Source of the DNA: a virus
Lineage: Duplodnaviria; Caudoviricetes
Reading direction: 5' to 3' (one strand)
Virus record (IMG/VR): IMGVR_UViG_3300006851_000007
Location: 60,781 to 124,780 of that record
DNA length: 64,000 nt
Below, in pieces: positions 20,664 to 28,671 of the stretch (the first letter of the stretch is position 1; each line of letters begins with the position of its first letter). The notes under the pieces are model-generated. The model saw only the letters and a list, made by a program, of their open reading frames with translations, did no database searches and was not told the origin of the DNA. Both the position numbers and the translations under genes were made by a program.

Positions 20664-21836
20664 TTAGCCAGCCCTCTCGTATAATTCTTCCGACGGGTGA
20701 TGGTATGCATCGGAAGCATTGTACGACTTGAGGTACTGGTCAAGACTTAGCATGACCATGGGCATGTTAAGCTCCCTTATAAAGTTCGGCACCGCCGAAT
20801 TGCCCCAACAGGGGTTGCCCCCAATCCCTATATGGGGGTGTACGGCTGGAACTGTTTCGCCGTCCTCTCCCATGCTCGTGAATGATGTCTCAATATCCAT
20901 ACCAACAGAGTTGGTTCCCACAATAACGTTGAATGTGCACGGCTTTATCAGCCACCCCCCCTCATCATCCTCTATAACCCTCTCTGGAATATCAAATCTC
21001 AGACGAAGGACTGAGGAGTACTGATCTCTTCGTCGATAAAGAGCCCCTGTCAGTGTTATATCTTCCCACCTCAGATCATCTTTTGTTACCTTATAGTCAT
21101 CTAAGATTAATTGTCGGGAGAGTAGAGTCTCCCTGTTTCTATATAATGACCCTAATCTGCCCCTTATCACATCTGCATAGTATGAAGCACCGCTTTGTGC
21201 GACAGGAACACTTAATCTCATGTTCAAGTCATACGTTACGTGTGAAAGAGTTATGGATGGTATTCTGTTGAACCCCAGGTTAGACAGGGTGTCTACAATC
21301 TCTTGTAACTCCTCCTCCATATTCAAAGCAGTGGTGAGCAGCGATGATGAGGTTCTTAAATCCTCAATCCTATTGTCGATTGACCGCATTTCATCTCTTA
21401 CCGACCTGCCGAACAGCTCATTCGCATCTCCTGCGAATGCCATTATTTGATTAATAATGAATTGGTCTGGGTCCTCGACAAGGTTTGGAAACATTTCCTC
21501 CAAACGGTCTTCAACCCATGTCTTGATGGTTGGCCTGTAATTATTGACGAGCTCCTCATCGTCAATTTTGGCCAGAATGAAGAATGACCGATTGGCGGTC
21601 GTGCATGCCGGTATACCATCAATGATTAACACCGGCCCACCCTCAAGATCCCTCTTCATTGCTTTGGTGAAATGCCTGTCACCGTTTAGGAAAAGCGGGA
21701 CACATACCATAACATCGGGAGTGATCCCCAATGATGTTACACCATCGCTGATAAACCTCGAGCTCCACCTCTCAAACCTCCTACGTACAGGGGATGTGTA
21801 CGCTTGCAATTCTTCCATAATAGCTGTTTCAAGCAT
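20664..21836 (-). CDS. prokaryotic E2 (UBC)-like protein with N-terminal coiled coil
   Basis: C-terminal VHPHIGIGGNPCWGN (HPN/HPH + candidate catalytic Cys) then helices ending SYNASDAY; coupled to the E1 gene. Confidence 0.7.
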   Translation of the reverse strand: MLETAIMEELQAYTSPVRRRFERWSSRFISDGVTSLGITPDVMVCVPLFLNGDRHFTKAMKRDLEGGPVLIIDGIPACTTANRSFFILAKIDDEELVNNYRPTIKTWVEDRLEEMFPNLVEDPDQFIINQIMAFAGDANELFGRSVRDEMRSIDNRIEDLRTSSSLLTTALNMEEELQEIVDTLSNLGFNRIPSITLSHVTYDLNMRLSVPVAQSGASYYADVIRGRLGSLYRNRETLLSRQLILDDYKVTKDDLRWEDITLTGALYRRRDQYSSVLRLRFDIPERVIEDDEGGWLIKPCTFNVIVGTNSVGMDIETSFTSMGEDGETVPAVHPHIGIGGNPCWGNSAVPNFIRELNMPMVMLSLDQYLKSYNASDAYHHPSEELYERAG

Positions 21837-22486
21837 TAGCCCTCCATACGAATATGGTCATTCGTTTTCGTGTCCATGATTGTGCAAAAGTCGTTCTTCT
21901 GCCCGTTCACATAATTAACAACCCTGGTCGTAATCATGCTGCCGATGGTCATGGCGGTGGACATGGTTGTCCTGGCTGTACACGGAAGGTTTGCGGTCTC
22001 CCCTTCCAGTGACTCTTTGTACGCAGATACCGCCCCTCGATCGGTCATGTCCACACAGTAGAGCATCATGGTTGTCAATCCCATTCGACCATCGATAAGA
22101 AGATCTACATTTGCATCATACTCAATAGCATTGAAGATCTCTCTTCTGGCCTCTAGGGAGTCAACCCCCACGATGACAACCCTTCTGGCCTCCTTACCCC
22201 TCTCAAACTTCTCTCTAGCGACCTCGATCTGCCCTTCTCCAAAATACGACAGAACATCATTGATGGAATCAACCTTGTGTTTGTTCTTGTGCCTATCCCC
22301 AAAGCTCTGATTTGACAGGTTGTGTTCCTCAACCACATCGTGATCATAAGCTTTGATATTCTTGAATCCTGTCTTAGATAGAGCAAGTATTGTCCAAGAG
22401 CCAATACCTCCAGCCCCAATGACCGTGATGGGTAATCTTTTTGCTTGATCCGTGGGGATGTAGTCCTGTTGTCTAAGATATCTCAT
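21836..22486 (-). CDS. ThiF/MoeB/E1-family Ubl-activating adenylyltransferase
   Basis: YLRQ, VIGAGGIGS, YDHDVVEEHNLSNQ, KVD, VGVDS..R, DGRMG; candidate thiol in NLPCT. Confidence 0.92.
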   Translation of the reverse strand: MRYLRQQDYIPTDQAKRLPITVIGAGGIGSWTILALSKTGFKNIKAYDHDVVEEHNLSNQSFGDRHKNKHKVDSINDVLSYFGEGQIEVAREKFERGKEARRVVIVGVDSLEARREIFNAIEYDANVDLLIDGRMGLTTMMLYCVDMTDRGAVSAYKESLEGETANLPCTARTTMSTAMTIGSMITTRVVNYVNGQKNDFCTIMDTKTNDHIRMEG

Positions 22487-22499
22487 TAGTTACTCCTTA

Positions 22500-23609
22500 T
22501 TATTCATAGATCCATGAATTAGACATGTAGAAATCATCAGAAAGATAGGCGTCCCAATAATAATGCGGAGGCTCCTCGTTGGCCGTCTCGATGTCTGCCA
22601 GGTCTACATCCACAAGAGTGCACGCATCCATAACCAGCTCCCACCTCCGCCTGTTTCGGACTGTTATGTCAAACTTTGACAGGCCTACACCCTCCAAGCA
22701 CACATCTTCCTGGTAACCCCCTTCGGCCCAGGATGCCATATCTTTAATAAACTCAATCCTTTTGCTGAGGTTTCCATTTGAAGTCCCCCCCTCATCCTCA
22801 ATGTCTTTCACTATTGAGGCGACTATATCCTCCTGGATCGATATACTTTCATCAAACTCCGTCTCAATTTCAGCAGACATGATCCAGTCAAAATCCTGGA
22901 GAGTGACTTCTTTTTTTTTAGAAGACGATCTCTTGTTCCTCCTGTTCCTCCTGGAGTGCAACCTCCCGTGCTTTCCTGCGGTCACTTTTCTCACCGCAGG
23001 CTTCTTCACGACCACCTTCTTTTTGTACTCGGCCTCACAGTGGCCTAGGGTATCAAACGCAATATCCAGCATCCTGATGACCTCTTTCTTCACCTCATCT
23101 CTCGGCAAGTCGTTAAACTTTTTGATGAGATCAATCACAGAGGTGATGCTTGTCAGCCCGTCAGGAACAATCTCAATTTCTATATTGTCCTGCTTGAGCT
23201 GATAGGGGGTGGAAAATGAGTCCACCCTCGTCCTGACTTCACCCTTTTTGTTGAACACGGACGAGACAAGGTAAGGATTCCCCCGGATGGTACGGATAGC
23301 CTCCTCGTCGGTAGCGGACCAGAACACATCCATATCAACATGTGAGTGCCACCACAGCCTCAGCTCTCCCAGCTCCTCCTCCCTGTCTGATAGCTCATCC
23401 ATCAAATGAGCAGTCGCAAGGGCATCAATTTCTGTGGTTACAGAGGTCACCTCCTGTTCAAGGAGGAAAGCGTCAGTTACCACGAAATGGTCGTCAACAA
23501 TCTTGACCGTTCCGTAGCCGCTTATTTCCTTGGGGCATAGTTGTACCCATTGTTGAATCTTCGAGTACGCTCTATCTGTATATCTGACAGGCTTCATTAT
23601 TACTCCCAC
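22500..23609 (-). CDS. JAB/MPN+ metallo-isopeptidase with C-terminal extension
   Basis: KEISGYG (catalytic E) and WWHSHVDMDVFWSATD = HxH-x7-SxxD. Confidence 0.9.
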   Translation of the reverse strand: MGVIMKPVRYTDRAYSKIQQWVQLCPKEISGYGTVKIVDDHFVVTDAFLLEQEVTSVTTEIDALATAHLMDELSDREEELGELRLWWHSHVDMDVFWSATDEEAIRTIRGNPYLVSSVFNKKGEVRTRVDSFSTPYQLKQDNIEIEIVPDGLTSITSVIDLIKKFNDLPRDEVKKEVIRMLDIAFDTLGHCEAEYKKKVVVKKPAVRKVTAGKHGRLHSRRNRRNKRSSSKKKEVTLQDFDWIMSAEIETEFDESISIQEDIVASIVKDIEDEGGTSNGNLSKRIEFIKDMASWAEGGYQEDVCLEGVGLSKFDITVRNRRRWELVMDACTLVDVDLADIETANEEPPHYYWDAYLSDDFYMSNSWIYE

Positions 23610-24505
23610 TCAACCTGGTTCATTGACTCTGCTACTTCCAAATTTGTGTGGTAACTATCGTCCTCATTATATGAAGATGTTACCTGACTCAGGATAAACC
23701 CAATCCCCATAATATCGAACCTGGTGACACATTCATTAAAGGCCCCACGCATATTCCCCAGGCACATTTCGGAATACCCAACCTCTGGGTGGTAGGTCGA
23801 TGCGTGAGGATGAAATGCACACGATACTGCTGGACTCATCCCCTCTAACACCGGCGAGGCTGTCAGGTACCACACACCATCGGCGTTCAGCCCGACAGCA
23901 TACTTAATGCTGTACTCATCACCCTCGTACTCTGGTGGGCGGTATCGAACCACAAACTCCATTTCCGAACCGCGCATATTAAAATCCAGAATCGCACCAC
24001 TATCGATAAGTTGTGCGACACCTCTAAACATCCCTATAAAATCATCAGGAGCGACAAACTCACTCAAGTTTCTCACTCTTCTCTCTGCTTCGACCTTATA
24101 ATCCTCAGTACGAAGGATAAGCCTCCTGAGGTCCCCTGCATTGAGGGCGATTAGAGTCTCATAGATACTATCCACACTCGATGACCCCTCACCGCCCGTG
24201 GGTGAGTCCTCTGTGCTGTCCATTAGGGTGTCTAGAATATCTTTGATTTTTGCGTAGAATGCTGGATGGGCATTATCCTCGTGATCCACATTAGCCAGCA
24301 TTATCGTTTTCTCTTCACGTATATAGAGAACCCCCTCGTCATCAGTGAACCGGTCATCGACGTTGGTAGGTCCCTCTACAGCCACCAACACCTCCCACTG
24401 ATCCGTAGAAGGGTCGCTCGGAAAGTAGTTGGTTCTTAAAATCCTGCCACCTACAGGCTCCATGCGGGAGAGTAGGGCATCCTCGAGTCCTGGTACAATA
24501 AACAT
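23600..24505 (-). CDS. prokaryotic E2 (UBC)-like protein, paralog of 20664..21836
   Basis: AFHPHASTYHPEVGYSEMCLGN..SYNEDDSY; lies between Ubl and JAB genes. Confidence 0.65.
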   Translation of the reverse strand: MFIVPGLEDALLSRMEPVGGRILRTNYFPSDPSTDQWEVLVAVEGPTNVDDRFTDDEGVLYIREEKTIMLANVDHEDNAHPAFYAKIKDILDTLMDSTEDSPTGGEGSSSVDSIYETLIALNAGDLRRLILRTEDYKVEAERRVRNLSEFVAPDDFIGMFRGVAQLIDSGAILDFNMRGSEMEFVVRYRPPEYEGDEYSIKYAVGLNADGVWYLTASPVLEGMSPAVSCAFHPHASTYHPEVGYSEMCLGNMRGAFNECVTRFDIMGIGFILSQVTSSYNEDDSYHTNLEVAESMNQVEWE

Positions 24506-24516
24506 TCTAATCCTTT

Positions 24517-24541
24517 AAAAAAAACGGGCGCCGAAGCGCCC
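24517..24541 (-). terminator. intrinsic terminator/attenuator after Ubl gene
   Basis: minus strand GGGCGC-UUCG-GCGCCC-G-U8. Confidence 0.85.
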
Positions 24542-24569: not shown

Positions 24570-24986
24570 TTACTGGCCACCCTCGACGTTCGGAGCCAGA
24601 ATGATGTTATCCCCGTTTTGTAGAACCTCACCTAGGGAGGCCTCCCTACCGTTTAGAAAAACCCGAGACCCGTCCGGCTCGTGTCGGCCGAGGAGGTCCC
24701 CGAGGATCTCACCTCTTTGGAATACTACTTTCTCTTGCCCCCTCCCCAGGCGGGACAGGGTGGCCGTAAGCTCTTCTGATCCACCCTTCACGTTTGACAC
24801 GATCGTGATCGTGTCTCCGTGTGCCACCTGAGCATCAAGGCTTACTTGCGCCCTCTCCCTGGTGACGATGCACCCTTCAGCTGAGAATCCGGACGCTCGG
24901 ACTGCGTCCAGGACCGTGCTTCCCTCGGGGAGATTAACTGTGGTCGAGCCCTGTCCAATCTTTCTTACATCAAGCTTCATATACAT
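24570..24986 (-). CDS. tandem di-ubiquitin-like (beta-grasp, MoaD/ThiS-like) protein precursor
   Basis: two ~68-aa domains ending GDTITIVSNVKGG and GDNIILAPNVEGG-Q; GGAGG RBS (start may be ATG 24980). Confidence 0.9.
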   Translation of the reverse strand: MYMKLDVRKIGQGSTTVNLPEGSTVLDAVRASGFSAEGCIVTRERAQVSLDAQVAHGDTITIVSNVKGGSEELTATLSRLGRGQEKVVFQRGEILGDLLGRHEPDGSRVFLNGREASLGEVLQNGDNIILAPNVEGGQ

Positions 24987-25035
24987 CCTCCATATGGATA
25001 AAATACGAGCAACACCCTATGTGCCGCTCGTGAAT

Positions 25036-25065
25036 ATTATACCGTTATTTTTGATTAAATTTAGC
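25036..25065 (-). promoter_or_regulatory. GCTAAA-N18-TATAAT promoter upstream of the Ubl operon
   Basis: matches the motif recurring at about 10 sites in the window. Confidence 0.7.
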
Positions 25066-25719
25066 CTTCCCGGTGCCGTGCACCCTAAAGGCTACTACCG
25101 AGCTGCGATTCTTTCTAAAGCACAGCATGCATTCAGAGCATGAGATACCATGCGTCTGGTTAGGACAAACAACAAGCCTGGCATTTTTGCCATTAATATT
25201 AATCACGCCAGATTCAAAGTCTTCGTCGACCACGGTCGTGGCAGGCCACCCTGAGTTGACAGCATTTATGACCTCTTCTTTTGAATCGCACGAAGCATTC
25301 ACGCAGAGGGATTTTTCGGCATTCATCTTTTTAGAATCCAGCCTCTCCCAGGCGTGGGTGTATGTCCACCCTTTAAGGTCTGGTCTTTCTGAGTGTGCCT
25401 TTAGTACTGAGTCTATATAGTTAGTATCAATCATATCTCCAGGCTTCATAAAGTCGCCAGAAACATGATGTCTGAGCTTCTTACCTTCAGGCAAATTAGT
25501 AACATAGTCGTAAATAATGTCAGCATCACTCCTGCTATATTCTGACACTTTTGCGTGCATATTCACAAACGAGTATAAGGCGTAACAGCTCCTATTTTGC
25601 AGGTGTTCACAGGATTGTGGACACGTGGGTCCAACCTCTCTGTATGTCGCTCTCACACCCCTACCGAGCTTGCGGTTGCCCGAATCCCTCTCAAGACATT
25701 TAATCATCTCTTCCTCCAA
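25045..25719 (-). CDS. Gp88-like / radical-SAM-related Cys-rich protein
   Basis: TCPQSC..SCYA, RHHVSGDF, WTYTH, CPNQ..CSECMLC, AFRVHG. Confidence 0.7.
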   Translation of the reverse strand: MEEEMIKCLERDSGNRKLGRGVRATYREVGPTCPQSCEHLQNRSCYALYSFVNMHAKVSEYSRSDADIIYDYVTNLPEGKKLRHHVSGDFMKPGDMIDTNYIDSVLKAHSERPDLKGWTYTHAWERLDSKKMNAEKSLCVNASCDSKEEVINAVNSGWPATTVVDEDFESGVININGKNARLVVCPNQTHGISCSECMLCFRKNRSSVVAFRVHGTGKAKFNQK

Positions 25720-28356: not shown

Positions 28357-28430
28357 TCGGAATGGCAGGACTCGAACCTGCGACCTGCGGATTAGGAATC
28401 CGCCGCTCTATCCTGCTGAGCTACATCCCG
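28357..28430 (-). tRNA. tRNA-Arg (anticodon CCT, reads AGG)
   Basis: acceptor CGGGAUG/CAUUCCG; anticodon arm GCGGA-UU CCU AA-UCCGC; GGUUCGAGUCC T-arm; no encoded CCA. Confidence 0.93.
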
Positions 28431-28505
28431 TGGTGGACCTACCCGGACTCGAACCGAGACATGACCTGTTATGAGCAGGTGGCTCTACCATTGAGCTATA
28501 GGTCC
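28431..28505 (-). tRNA. tRNA with CAT anticodon, probably Ile2 (lysidine, reads ATA)
   Basis: acceptor GGACCUA/UAGGUCC + ACCA; anticodon loop CU CAU AA; acceptor stem resembles bacterial tRNA-Ile2 more than fMet/eMet. Confidence 0.85.
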
Positions 28506-28574
28506 AGATAGAGGAGGTTTTGGTGGCCGCGCCAACAGTCACTGTCTGCCTCCTCTCTCACCCTTCAGGGTGAA

Positions 28575-28648
<74 letters not shown>

Positions 28649-28671
28649 ATAGAGAAGTTTTCACTTCTCCT

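What the first reader, a model, noticed from the sequence alone, without database searches (positions are those of the whole stretch)
20664..24505. Two divergent E2-like paralogs, possibly one per Ubl, with large N-terminal regions that could replace an E3
Seen: both end in a shared signature HPH-x(7-13)-C[LW]GN-x(~26-28)-SYN-x-x-D-[SA]Y (VHPHIGIGGNPCWGN..SYNASDAY; FHPHASTYHPEVGYSEMCLGN..SYNEDDSY). Their 200-300-aa N-terminal regions look unrelated and include coiled-coil-like segments. No RING/HECT-like gene is in the operon. Inference: two Ubls plus two E2s may be two parallel tagging branches or an E2 heterodimer, with the N-terminal regions choosing substrates.
Basis: partly seen in the sequence, partly recalled or inferred. 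Interest (0 to 1): 0.7.

Follow-up and report, generated by a model that had tools for sequence, protein, structure and literature searches.

The report
Two phage ubiquitin-conjugating (E2) enzyme paralogs
A large phage carries a ubiquitin-like tagging operon with two very different E2-type conjugating enzymes, both from a so far unannotated E2 family that recurs next to a ubiquitin-like protein, a JAB peptidase and a small E1 in many phages and mobile elements.

Summary
The 301-aa (23600-24505, "E2a") and 390-aa (20664-21836, "E2b") proteins share a C-terminal ~140-aa domain with the motif HPH-x(7-13)-C-x-GN-x(24-26)-SYN-x2-D-x-Y.

No Pfam, PHROG, PADLOC or NCBIfam model detects either protein. 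I collected about 48 distinct relatives from phage and metagenome contigs, plus 27 from bacterial MAGs. Nearly all lie in a fixed cassette: Ubl(GG+cap) - this protein - JAB - small ThiF-type E1. The Cys is invariant.

A 42-sequence profile hits only ubiquitin-conjugating enzymes among its best 60 PDB matches (best E 1.7e-4). It aligns HPH with HPN, the Cys with the catalytic Cys, and YNxxDPY with PNPxxP. AlphaFold models of both paralogs retrieve mainly UBC and RWD folds, at modest Z of 5-6.5. So both are real, probably active E2s of a new clade.

The "one E2 per Ubl" idea is not supported. Three other cassettes have two E2s with a single-domain Ubl, and one has a di-Ubl with one E2. E2 doubling arose independently at least three times. 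The N-terminal regions are unrelated in sequence, and E3-free targeting through them has the Bil systems as precedent, but it remains inference. A heterodimer could not be tested. The cassette's targets and its role for the phage are unknown.

The parts
24570..24986 (-). Di-Ubl: two ThiS/MoaD-like beta-grasp units (residues 1-69 ending NVKGG; residues 70-137 ending NVEGG, followed by Gln and the stop).
   Evidence: Pfam ThiS E 9e-8 with two stretches. The two halves are 26% identical, E 1e-4. Relatives ending in GG plus a 0-4 residue cap lie upstream of the E2 gene in most loci.
24526..24541 (-). Terminator-like GC hairpin followed by T8, between the Ubl gene and E2a. It may be an attenuator that gives more Ubl message than enzyme message.
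   Evidence: Consensus scan and the sequence read directly. Its function was not tested.
23600..24505 (-). E2a, 301 aa. The N-terminal ~150 aa is poorly modelled and includes a 42-residue helix. The UBC-like core spans about residues 150-298 (DNA 23603-24058). HPH is at 232-234 and the predicted catalytic Cys248 is the codon 23762-23764. The HPH-to-Cys loop is unusually long at 13 residues.
   Evidence: family HMM E 5.9e-13.
22500..23609 (-). JAB/MPN metallopeptidase with a complete JAMM motif (E28, H88-x-H90, S98, D101) and a ~230-aa C-terminal extension. The true start is probably the ATG at 23597.
   Evidence: Pfam Prok-JAB E 0.003, below its cut-off. The motif residues are invariant in 38 homologues. 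The nearest solved relatives are Rpn11-like proteins. The start codon was read.
21836..22486 (-). Minimal E1-like adenylyltransferase, 216 aa, with a single ThiF domain. It has no inactive adenylation domain, no inserted CYS domain and no UFD. Cys169 (in a P-C-T motif) is invariant.
   Evidence: Pfam ThiF E 3.9e-17. Conservation in 30 homologues.
20664..21836 (-). E2b, 390 aa. The N-terminal ~255 aa is unrelated in sequence to that of E2a. The UBC-like core spans about residues 257-390 (DNA 20667-21068). HPH is at 333-335 and the predicted catalytic Cys343 is the codon 20808-20810. Its start codon overlaps the E1 stop codon by one base (TAATG).
   Evidence: family HMM E 2.6e-14.

Best explanation
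E2a and E2b are two divergent, probably catalytically active UBC-fold E2 enzymes. They belong to a clade that current family libraries do not cover. This clade is the fixed second gene of a cassette, Ubl(GG+cap) - E2 - JAB - small E1, carried by phages and other mobile elements.

Proposed pathway (inferred). The JAB peptidase removes the C-terminal cap of the Ubl and may also cut the di-Ubl after its internal GG. The 216-aa ThiF-type E1 adenylates the exposed Gly, and its invariant crossover-loop-region Cys169 may carry a thioester. The Ubl then passes to Cys248 of E2a or Cys343 of E2b. Each E2 transfers it to a target lysine without an E3, as is proposed for Bil systems.

The two E2s most likely share the same E1 and the same Ubl pool, and differ in the targets recruited by their unrelated N-terminal regions.

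Shown here: homology to UBC, the invariant Cys at the catalytic position, the conserved gene order, and repeated independent doubling of the E2. Inferred: thioester chemistry, E3 independence, target choice by the N-termini, and any biological role. I put about 0.85 on the E2 identity and about 0.45 on 'two target sets, one shared Ubl/E1'.
For: 1. Family and synteny. A full HMMER search with the paralog alignment found 7 distant members. DNA-motif scans and a JAB-seeded scan found 17 viral, 25 metagenomic and 30 bacterial-genome loci. Where the contig allows, JAB and E1 homologues follow the gene directly, and a small GG-ended Ubl precedes it.

2. Conservation. The Cys is present in all 48 distinct members aligned, including those found through JAB or by the profile search. 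The preceding motif is HP[H/N/Y/T/F]. One subclade has the canonical HPN-x7-C and CNPNSP.

3. Sequence homology to UBC. A 42-sequence profile searched against PDB gave 199 matches at E<=10. The best 60 are all E2 enzymes, with a best E of 1.7e-4. HPH aligns with HPN, the Cys with the catalytic Cys, and YNxxDPY with PNPxxP. UbcH7 aligns over profile positions 49-171. UQ_con is the top sub-threshold Pfam hit for 7 members (E 0.0011-0.13), always over profile positions ~59-122.

4. Fold. For the E2b domain model (pLDDT 71), almost all of the top 30 VIA-align matches are E2 or UEV domains (UBE2W Z 5.8-5.9, UbcH10 5.3). For the E2a model (pLDDT 63), residues 147-298 match RWD and UBC domains (Knl1 Z 6.5, Pex4 6.2, UbcH10 6.1).

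5. Operon. E2b is translationally coupled to E1 (TAATG). A related contig, L002, also has the E1 C-terminus directly upstream of the E2b orthologue.

6. Partner enzymes look active. The JAMM motif and the adenylation residues are invariant.

7. Doubling recurs. Two-E2 cassettes occur in L037, L038 and L045, and these are local duplications on the tree. Window E2a (with L007) and E2b (with L002) lie in different halves of the tree.
Against: There is no biochemical evidence. Neither window protein reaches any Pfam, NCBIfam, PHROG or PADLOC threshold on its own. Foldseek against PDB gave nothing significant. The VIA Z-scores of 5-6.5 are below the level that the tool calls safe by itself. Model confidence is moderate, and low for the N-terminal regions. 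The PDB profile E-values are significant but modest. The E1 lacks the CYS domain and the UFD that canonical E1s use to charge and bind E2s, so how these E2s are loaded is unknown. The N-terminal regions have no recognisable fold or family, so target recruitment by them is a guess. Support for the deep split between E2a and E2b on the tree is moderate (86/89), and both sit on long branches.
Confidence: 0.7

Rival explanations
1. Orthogonal branches. Each E2 is dedicated to one of the two Ubl units of the di-Ubl, giving two parallel tagging pathways that share one E1.
For: The window has exactly two GG-ended Ubl units and two E2s. The two units are only 26% identical. The two E2s are very divergent (28% identity in the core).
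Against: Copy numbers are uncoupled elsewhere. L037, L038 and L045 have two E2s and one 69-86-aa single-domain Ubl. L069 has a 139-aa di-Ubl with GG at 70-71 and 137-138 but only one E2. Both Ubl units hit the same set of Ubl relatives, with no sign of two separate lineages.
Confidence: 0.12
2. Obligate E2 pair. E2a and E2b act as a heterodimer, perhaps through their helical regions. One would position the acceptor or a donor Ubl, as in Ubc13-Mms2, or the pair would build chains.
For: E2 duplicates are retained side by side in at least three independent lineages. Both proteins have long helices before the UBC core.
Against: Both paralogs keep the Cys and the HPH motif, unlike a UEV-type partner. 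In the window the two genes are separated by the JAB and E1 genes. Most cassettes work with a single E2.
Confidence: 0.15
3. The shared domain is not a conjugating enzyme. It could be a Cys/His hydrolase, a Ubl-binding adaptor or a structural protein that merely resembles UBC.
For: The window proteins have no above-threshold family match. The structural Z-scores are modest, and RWD and UEV domains (non-catalytic UBC-like folds) appear among the matches.
Against: The motif, its spacing and the invariant Cys coincide with the UBC active site in a significant profile alignment. The gene occupies the E2 slot of a Ubl-E2-JAB-E1 order known from Bil operons. A peptidase is already present in the cassette.
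Confidence: 0.05

Closest known systems
Canonical UBC/E2 enzymes (Pfam UQ_con, PF00179), for example UBE2W, UbcH5 and UbcH7
   Same: The predicted fold is the same: a helix, a four-stranded meander, the HPx loop, the Cys, and the crossover helix. The HP[N/H]-x6-8-Cys spacing matches, as does the N-x-x-D-P motif about 30 residues after the Cys. The aligned UBE2W-type chain 3we5 also reads HPH rather than HPN.
   Different: The family scores below the Pfam cut-off (best 19 bits against 27). The core lacks most of the C-terminal helices. It carries a 150-350-aa N-terminal extension. It has G-N after the Cys and Y before the N. It is encoded by phages and mobile elements next to a minimal E1.
Bil (bacterial ISG15-like) operons, types I and II (Chambers et al., 10.1101/2023.09.26.559546; Hor et al., 10.1101/2023.09.04.556158)
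   Same: The gene order Ubl-E2-JAB/DUB-E1 is identical. There is no E3 gene. The Ubl needs its C-terminus trimmed. Some Ubls have two beta-grasp units.
   Different: The Bil E1 is a multidomain protein of ~500 aa (inactive and active adenylation domains plus a CYS insertion), whereas the E1 here has a single 216-aa domain. The type II Bil E2 carries a CEHH motif, whereas these have HPH...C-x-GN...YN. Bil is a host defence system, whereas here the cassette sits in a phage and, in bacteria, among mobile-element genes. The E2, JAB and Ubl proteins gave no relevant PADLOC match; the JAB gave two weak hits (E ~0.004) to unrelated families and the E1 matched only CBASS-type E1-E2 models.
Prokaryotic E2 families of Iyer, Burroughs and Aravind (operon classes 6a-6e; Pfam Prok-E2_A to E), including Prok-E2_D and the PRTRC cassette of conjugative elements
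   Same: These are stand-alone or fused E2-like proteins found with E1-like, JAB and Ubl genes, often on mobile elements (PMC1779556). The ESM Atlas's own model of E2b matched a Prok-E2_D cluster at TM 0.54 (a lead only). The E1 weakly resembles PRTRC_ThiF (37 bits against a cut-off of 145).
   Different: No Prok-E2 family appeared when 21 members were scanned at E<=5 and about 20 further proteins at E<=0.5-1. The PF14460 HMM finds nothing in the window's contig (E<=10) or in five MAGs that carry the family (E<=1). Class 6d E2s lack the upstream His. Class 6e/Bub E2s lack the Cys and use Ser.
CBASS Cap2 (E2-E1 fusion)
   Same: It combines an E1-like adenylation domain with a UBC-like domain and a JAB partner. 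The window E1 matches Cap2 E1 models (PADLOC E 5e-11). Cap2 (7to3) appears among the structural matches at Z 3.9.
   Different: Here E1 and E2 are separate genes. A true Ubl is present. There is no CD-NTase.

Membership tests
UBC/E2 superfamily | UBC fold: N-terminal helix, four-stranded antiparallel meander, active-site loop, crossover helix | tested here: met
   AF2 models of both paralogs were made. The E2b domain model gives E2 or UEV domains for almost all of the top 30 of 48,161 chains (Z 4.2-5.8, 79-106 residues aligned). E2a residues 147-298 match RWD and UBC domains at Z 5.4-6.5. The Z-scores are modest and Foldseek alone was not significant.
UBC/E2 superfamily | Conserved catalytic Cys 7-8 residues after an HPN-type motif | tested here: met
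   The Cys is present in 48 of 48 distinct members. The profile-to-PDB alignment places it on the catalytic Cys and places HPH on HPN. The spacing is 6-8 residues in most members, 7 in E2b and 13 in E2a.
UBC/E2 superfamily | Significant sequence similarity to known E2s | tested here: met
   This holds at the family-profile level only. Among 177,635 PDB sequences the best 60 hits are all E2 enzymes, with a best E of 1.7e-4.
Pfam UQ_con (PF00179) | Score at or above the curated gathering cut-off (27 bits) | tested here: not met
   The best member scores 19 bits. The window proteins give no hit at all, even at E<=10 on the contig.
UBC/E2 superfamily | Forms a thioester with the cognate Ubl and transfers it to a lysine | not testable with these tools
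   This needs biochemistry.
Pfam Prok-E2_D (PF14460) | Match to the family HMM | tested here: not met
   There is no hit on the window's contig at E<=10, none in five MAGs that carry the family at E<=1, and none among 21 members scanned at E<=5. The only link is an ESM-Atlas structural lead at TM 0.54.
Bil operon (BilABCD) | Gene order Ubl - E2 - JAB/DUB - E1, with no E3 | tested here: met
   The order is seen in the window and in dozens of related loci.
Bil operon (BilABCD) | Multidomain E1 with inactive and active adenylation domains and an inserted CYS domain | tested here: not met
   The E1 is 216 aa with one ThiF domain. Its homologues are 207-306 aa.
Bil operon, type II | E2 with the CEHH motif | tested here: not met
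   The invariant residues of this family are H, P, C, G, Y, N and Y. There is no conserved Glu/His/His after the Cys.
Bub (6E/DUF6527) operon | DUF6527 serine protease present, and an E2 that uses Ser instead of Cys | tested here: not met
   No DUF6527 hit was found in the operon proteins. The E2 Cys is invariant.

The most novel reading that the evidence does not exclude
Phages and conjugative or integrative elements carry their own complete, E3-independent ubiquitin-like conjugation machine, built from a minimal E1 and a distinct UBC-type E2 clade. They would use it offensively or during establishment in a new cell: to tag host proteins such as defence or replication factors, rival elements, or their own proteins. 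Repeated E2 duplication would widen or split the target range. This would be the mobile-element counterpart of the host's Bil, Bub and CBASS conjugation systems.
Probability: 0.35. Interest if true: 0.85.

Novelty: new variant of a known kind. Interest (0 to 1): 0.62.

Why it matters
The ubiquitin-like conjugation systems of prokaryotes studied so far (Bil, Bub, CBASS Cap2) are host defences against phages. Here the same enzymatic logic sits in a phage genome. Related cassettes occur in at least 17 other viral contigs, in 25 metagenome contigs and in mobile-element regions of bacterial MAGs. The E2 clade keeps the canonical HPx-Cys-NxxDP active-site signature, yet the standard annotation models searched here (Pfam, NCBIfam, PHROGs, PADLOC) do not detect it.

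This gives three things. First, a concrete and easily tested candidate for protein tagging by phages. Second, sequence intermediates between eukaryote-type UBC enzymes and minimal bacterial systems. Third, a natural experiment, the independent E2 doublings, on how E3-less E2s choose their targets.

Cultured phages with a related cassette exist: E1 homologues occur in Flavobacterium phages and in phages of Bacteroides intestinalis. Genetics is therefore feasible.

Tried and rejected
- Word-indexed homologue searches with E2a, E2b and a 9-sequence alignment returned essentially only the query proteins.
- Single-protein locus scans with E2b and E1 in viral and metagenome contigs found nothing.
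- The JAB alignment found nothing in genome contigs.
- Alignment A3 had no stretch conserved enough for a locus scan.
- blastn of the operon against phage records gave no match.
- Pfam, PHROGs, PADLOC and NCBIfam gave nothing for E2a or E2b.
- The PF14460 and PF00179 HMMs gave nothing on the contig, and PF14460 gave nothing in five MAGs.
- PDB profile searches with only 2 or 21 sequences were not significant. The best E2 hit had E 1.5, although it already aligned HPH and the Cys correctly.
- Foldseek against PDB gave no significant match. The atlas search with my own model gave nothing above TM 0.36.
- Complex prediction of E2a with E2b returned 'no answer'. I do not count this for or against binding.
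- No sequence similarity was found between the two N-terminal regions.
- An attempt to assign the two Ubl units to different Ubl lineages was uninformative.
- Literature searches of the held library found no paper describing a phage-borne Ubl-E2-JAB-E1 cassette. This is not proof that none exists.


Full report
**Setting.** The window is the second half of a 124,780-bp IMG/VR viral contig, estimated 75% complete. Most of its large proteins have no PHROG match. On the minus strand, between 26973 and 20664, lies a gene string that includes the following:
- a 138-aa protein with two ThiS-like units (24570-24986);
- a 301-aa protein, "E2a" (23600-24505);
- a JAB/MPN protein (22500-23609);
- a 216-aa ThiF-type E1 (21836-22486);
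- a 390-aa protein, "E2b" (20664-21836).

The E2b start codon overlaps the E1 stop codon by one base (TAATG). The JAB gene probably starts at the ATG two bases after the E2a stop. A GC hairpin followed by T8 lies between the Ubl gene and E2a.

**Observation.** BLASTP aligns the C-termini at 31% identity over 49 residues, E 8e-4. An alignment of the last ~155 residues gives 28% identity, with matches that extend upstream of HPH. Neither protein matches any Pfam, PHROG, PADLOC or NCBIfam model, and word-indexed searches return only the query proteins. The N-terminal regions show no detectable similarity to each other.

**A family exists, and its context is fixed.**
- A full HMMER search of 1.8 billion representatives with the two-sequence profile found seven distant proteins of 199-476 aa with the same motif. 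Their contigs show Ubl - this protein - JAB - ThiF.
- Two degenerate DNA patterns for the motif found 17 viral contigs. All carry the motif in frame, and many come from phages of 150-180 kb.
- A JAB-seeded scan, which does not depend on the E2 motif, found 25 metagenome loci. Of these, 22 carry a family member directly upstream of JAB; two of the other three still hold an unassigned 83-138-aa frame upstream of JAB and one starts within JAB.
- A pattern scan of species-representative genomes found 30 loci, mostly in Myxococcota MAGs and several per genome. Of these, 27 carry a family member and most of those again show E2-JAB-E1. They lie among relaxase-like, coupling-protein, primase, Rad52, nuclease and integrase genes, which marks them as mobile elements.
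- Directly upstream there is almost always a small protein ending ...[KV]xGG plus 0-4 residues.
- A family HMM built without the window's proteins hits only E2b (2.6e-14) and E2a (5.9e-13) in the whole contig.

**Is it an E2?**
- The Cys is present in all 48 distinct members aligned. The preceding motif is HP followed by H, N, Y, T or F. One subclade reads HPN-x7-C ... CNPNSP, which is the canonical eukaryote-type signature.
- With 2 or 21 sequences, the profile search of PDB was not significant, though it already aligned HPH and the Cys with a UBE2W-type E2.
- With 42 sequences (alignment A7) it gave 199 matches at E<=10. The best 60 are all ubiquitin-conjugating enzymes, with a best E of 1.7e-4. 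The alignment places HPH on HPN, the family Cys on the catalytic Cys, and YNxxDPY on PNPxxP. UbcH7 aligns across profile positions 49-171.
- UQ_con is the best, though sub-threshold, Pfam hit for seven members, always over profile positions ~59-122.
- An AlphaFold2 model of the E2b domain (21-row alignment, pLDDT 71) has a helix, a beta-meander, then HPH, the Cys and a long helix. Against 48,161 PDB representatives, almost all of its top 30 matches are E2 or UEV domains (UBE2W Z 5.8, rmsd 3.3 over 79 residues; UbcH10 Z 5.3 over 99). Cap2 also appears, at Z 3.9. A second look over Foldseek's candidates agrees.
- The full-length E2a model (pLDDT 63) matches RWD and UBC domains over residues 147-298 (Z 5.4-6.5).
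- Foldseek alone and the atlas search with my model found nothing. The Z-scores are modest.
- Taken together (profile homology, motif spacing, fold and gene position), I rate the E2 identity at about 0.85.

**Partner enzymes.** In 38 JAB homologues the JAMM residues E28, H88, H90, S98 and D101 are conserved or invariant. In 30 E1 homologues the nucleotide-binding and adenylation residues are invariant, as is a single Cys (C169, in P-C-T). The E1 is a single domain. Its nearest solved relatives are PaaA, ThiF-type proteins and the SUMO E1 subunit 2. The nearest solved relatives of the JAB are Rpn11-like proteins. Whether C169 carries a thioester is inference.

**Two E2s and two Ubl units.**
- Elsewhere most cassettes have one E2. 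L037, L038 and L045, however, have two family genes in tandem ahead of JAB-E1, with one single-domain Ubl of 69-86 aa.
- On a maximum-likelihood tree these pairs fall within well-supported local clades, so they are local duplications. Window E2a groups with L007 (99/78) and E2b with L002 (94/85), in opposite halves of the tree. That split has 86/89 support and involves long branches.
- L007 and L002 are fragments of close relatives of this phage. In L007, JAB scores E 3e-70 and E1 E 2e-52. L002 begins with the E1 C-terminus, followed by the E2b orthologue and the same convergent M15 peptidase.
- Conversely, L069 (a Nitrospirota MAG) has a 139-aa di-Ubl with GG at 70-71 and 137-138 but only one E2.
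- So the number of Ubl units and the number of E2s vary independently. This argues against a strict one-to-one pairing. It favours the view that E2 doubling serves target range, or possibly pairing between E2s. A complex prediction for E2a with E2b returned no answer.

**Relation to known systems.**
- The gene order equals that of Bil operons (Ubl-E2-DUB-E1). Bil operons also lack an E3, and their E2s are proposed to recognise targets directly.
- The differences from Bil are the minimal E1, the HPH-C-GN-YN E2 (not CEHH), and the location in phages and mobile elements.
- Bub/6E systems use Ser and Tyr oxyesters and a DUF6527 protease. None of that applies here.
- No Prok-E2 Pfam family matched any member scanned, and PF14460 found nothing in genomes that carry the family. 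The only link is an ESM-Atlas structural lead.
- Related E1 genes occur in 79 deposited phage records, including Flavobacterium phages and phages of Bacteroides intestinalis. In Flavobacterium phage FpV4 the neighbours are a Ubl-containing protein, a 420-aa protein with an HSH...C motif, a JAB and the E1, which is annotated as 'thiamine biosynthesis protein'.
- I found no paper in the held library that describes such a phage cassette.

**Verdict.** The E2 interpretation is supported. E3-free target choice by the N-termini is plausible but untested. The one-E2-per-Ubl idea is disfavoured. I class the finding as a new variant of a known kind of system: an unannotated UBC-type E2 clade in a mobile-element Ubl cassette, present here in two copies. 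Its targets and its role for the phage remain unknown.

Noticed in passing
window 24526-24541 (minus strand): A strong terminator-like hairpin (GGGCGC-TTCG-GCGCCC followed by T8) lies between the Ubl gene and E2a. A second one (25005-25031) lies upstream of the Ubl gene. The Ubl may therefore be transcribed in excess over the enzymes.
   Followed up: partly
window 23597-23609: The listed GTG start of the JAB gene overlaps the end of E2a. An ATG two bases after the E2a stop (giving MKPV...) is the more likely start.
   Followed up: partly
L029, L030, L032, L033 (metagenome contigs): This subclade of the family has the canonical eukaryote-type motifs HPN-x7-C and CNPNSP, inside the same E2-JAB-E1 cassette. 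These are sequence intermediates towards classical UBC enzymes.
   Followed up: partly
L010, L011, L012 (viral contigs): A 674-aa variant carries the UBC-like domain at its N-terminus (HPH at residue 145) and a ~480-aa C-terminal extension. E1 lies downstream, but no JAB homologue or JAMM motif was detected.
   Followed up: partly
L051-L080 (bacterial MAGs, mostly Myxococcota): Several copies of the E2-JAB-E1 cassette occur per genome, for example five loci in one MAG. They lie beside relaxase-like, type IV coupling protein, DnaG-type primase, Rad52, PD-(D/E)XK nuclease and integrase genes, so the cassette travels with integrative or conjugative elements as well as phages.
   Followed up: partly
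L025 = Flavobacterium phage FpV4, NC_041872.1 62787-67889: A cultured phage has a Ubl-containing protein (gp53, with an internal ...KSGG), a 420-aa protein with an HSH...C motif (gp52), a JAB (gp51) and an E1 annotated as 'thiamine biosynthesis protein' (gp50), all within its replication module. This is a possible experimental model. E1 homologues were found in 79 phage records, including phages of Bacteroides intestinalis.
   Followed up: partly
L008, L014, L016, L017, L018, L023 (large viral contigs): In this subfamily the Ubl carries a ~70-90-aa N-terminal region that looks helical or coiled-coil, before a single beta-grasp unit ending VAGG plus a cap. This resembles the CC-Ubl1 architecture reported for bacterial Ubls.
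   Followed up: no
L069:2220-2639 (Nitrospirota MAG): A 139-aa di-Ubl has the same design as the window's: two units, each ending in GG, with a one-residue cap. It sits next to a single E2 and near an integrase.
   Followed up: yes
window 28357-28649 (minus strand): A cluster of three tRNA genes (Arg-CCT, Met-CAT, Arg-TCT) lies just upstream of the region.
   Followed up: no
window 25045-25719 (minus strand): The gene upstream of the Ubl belongs to DUF7227 / GP88 (E 8e-37), a phage family of unknown function. Whether it belongs with the cassette was not examined.
   Followed up: no
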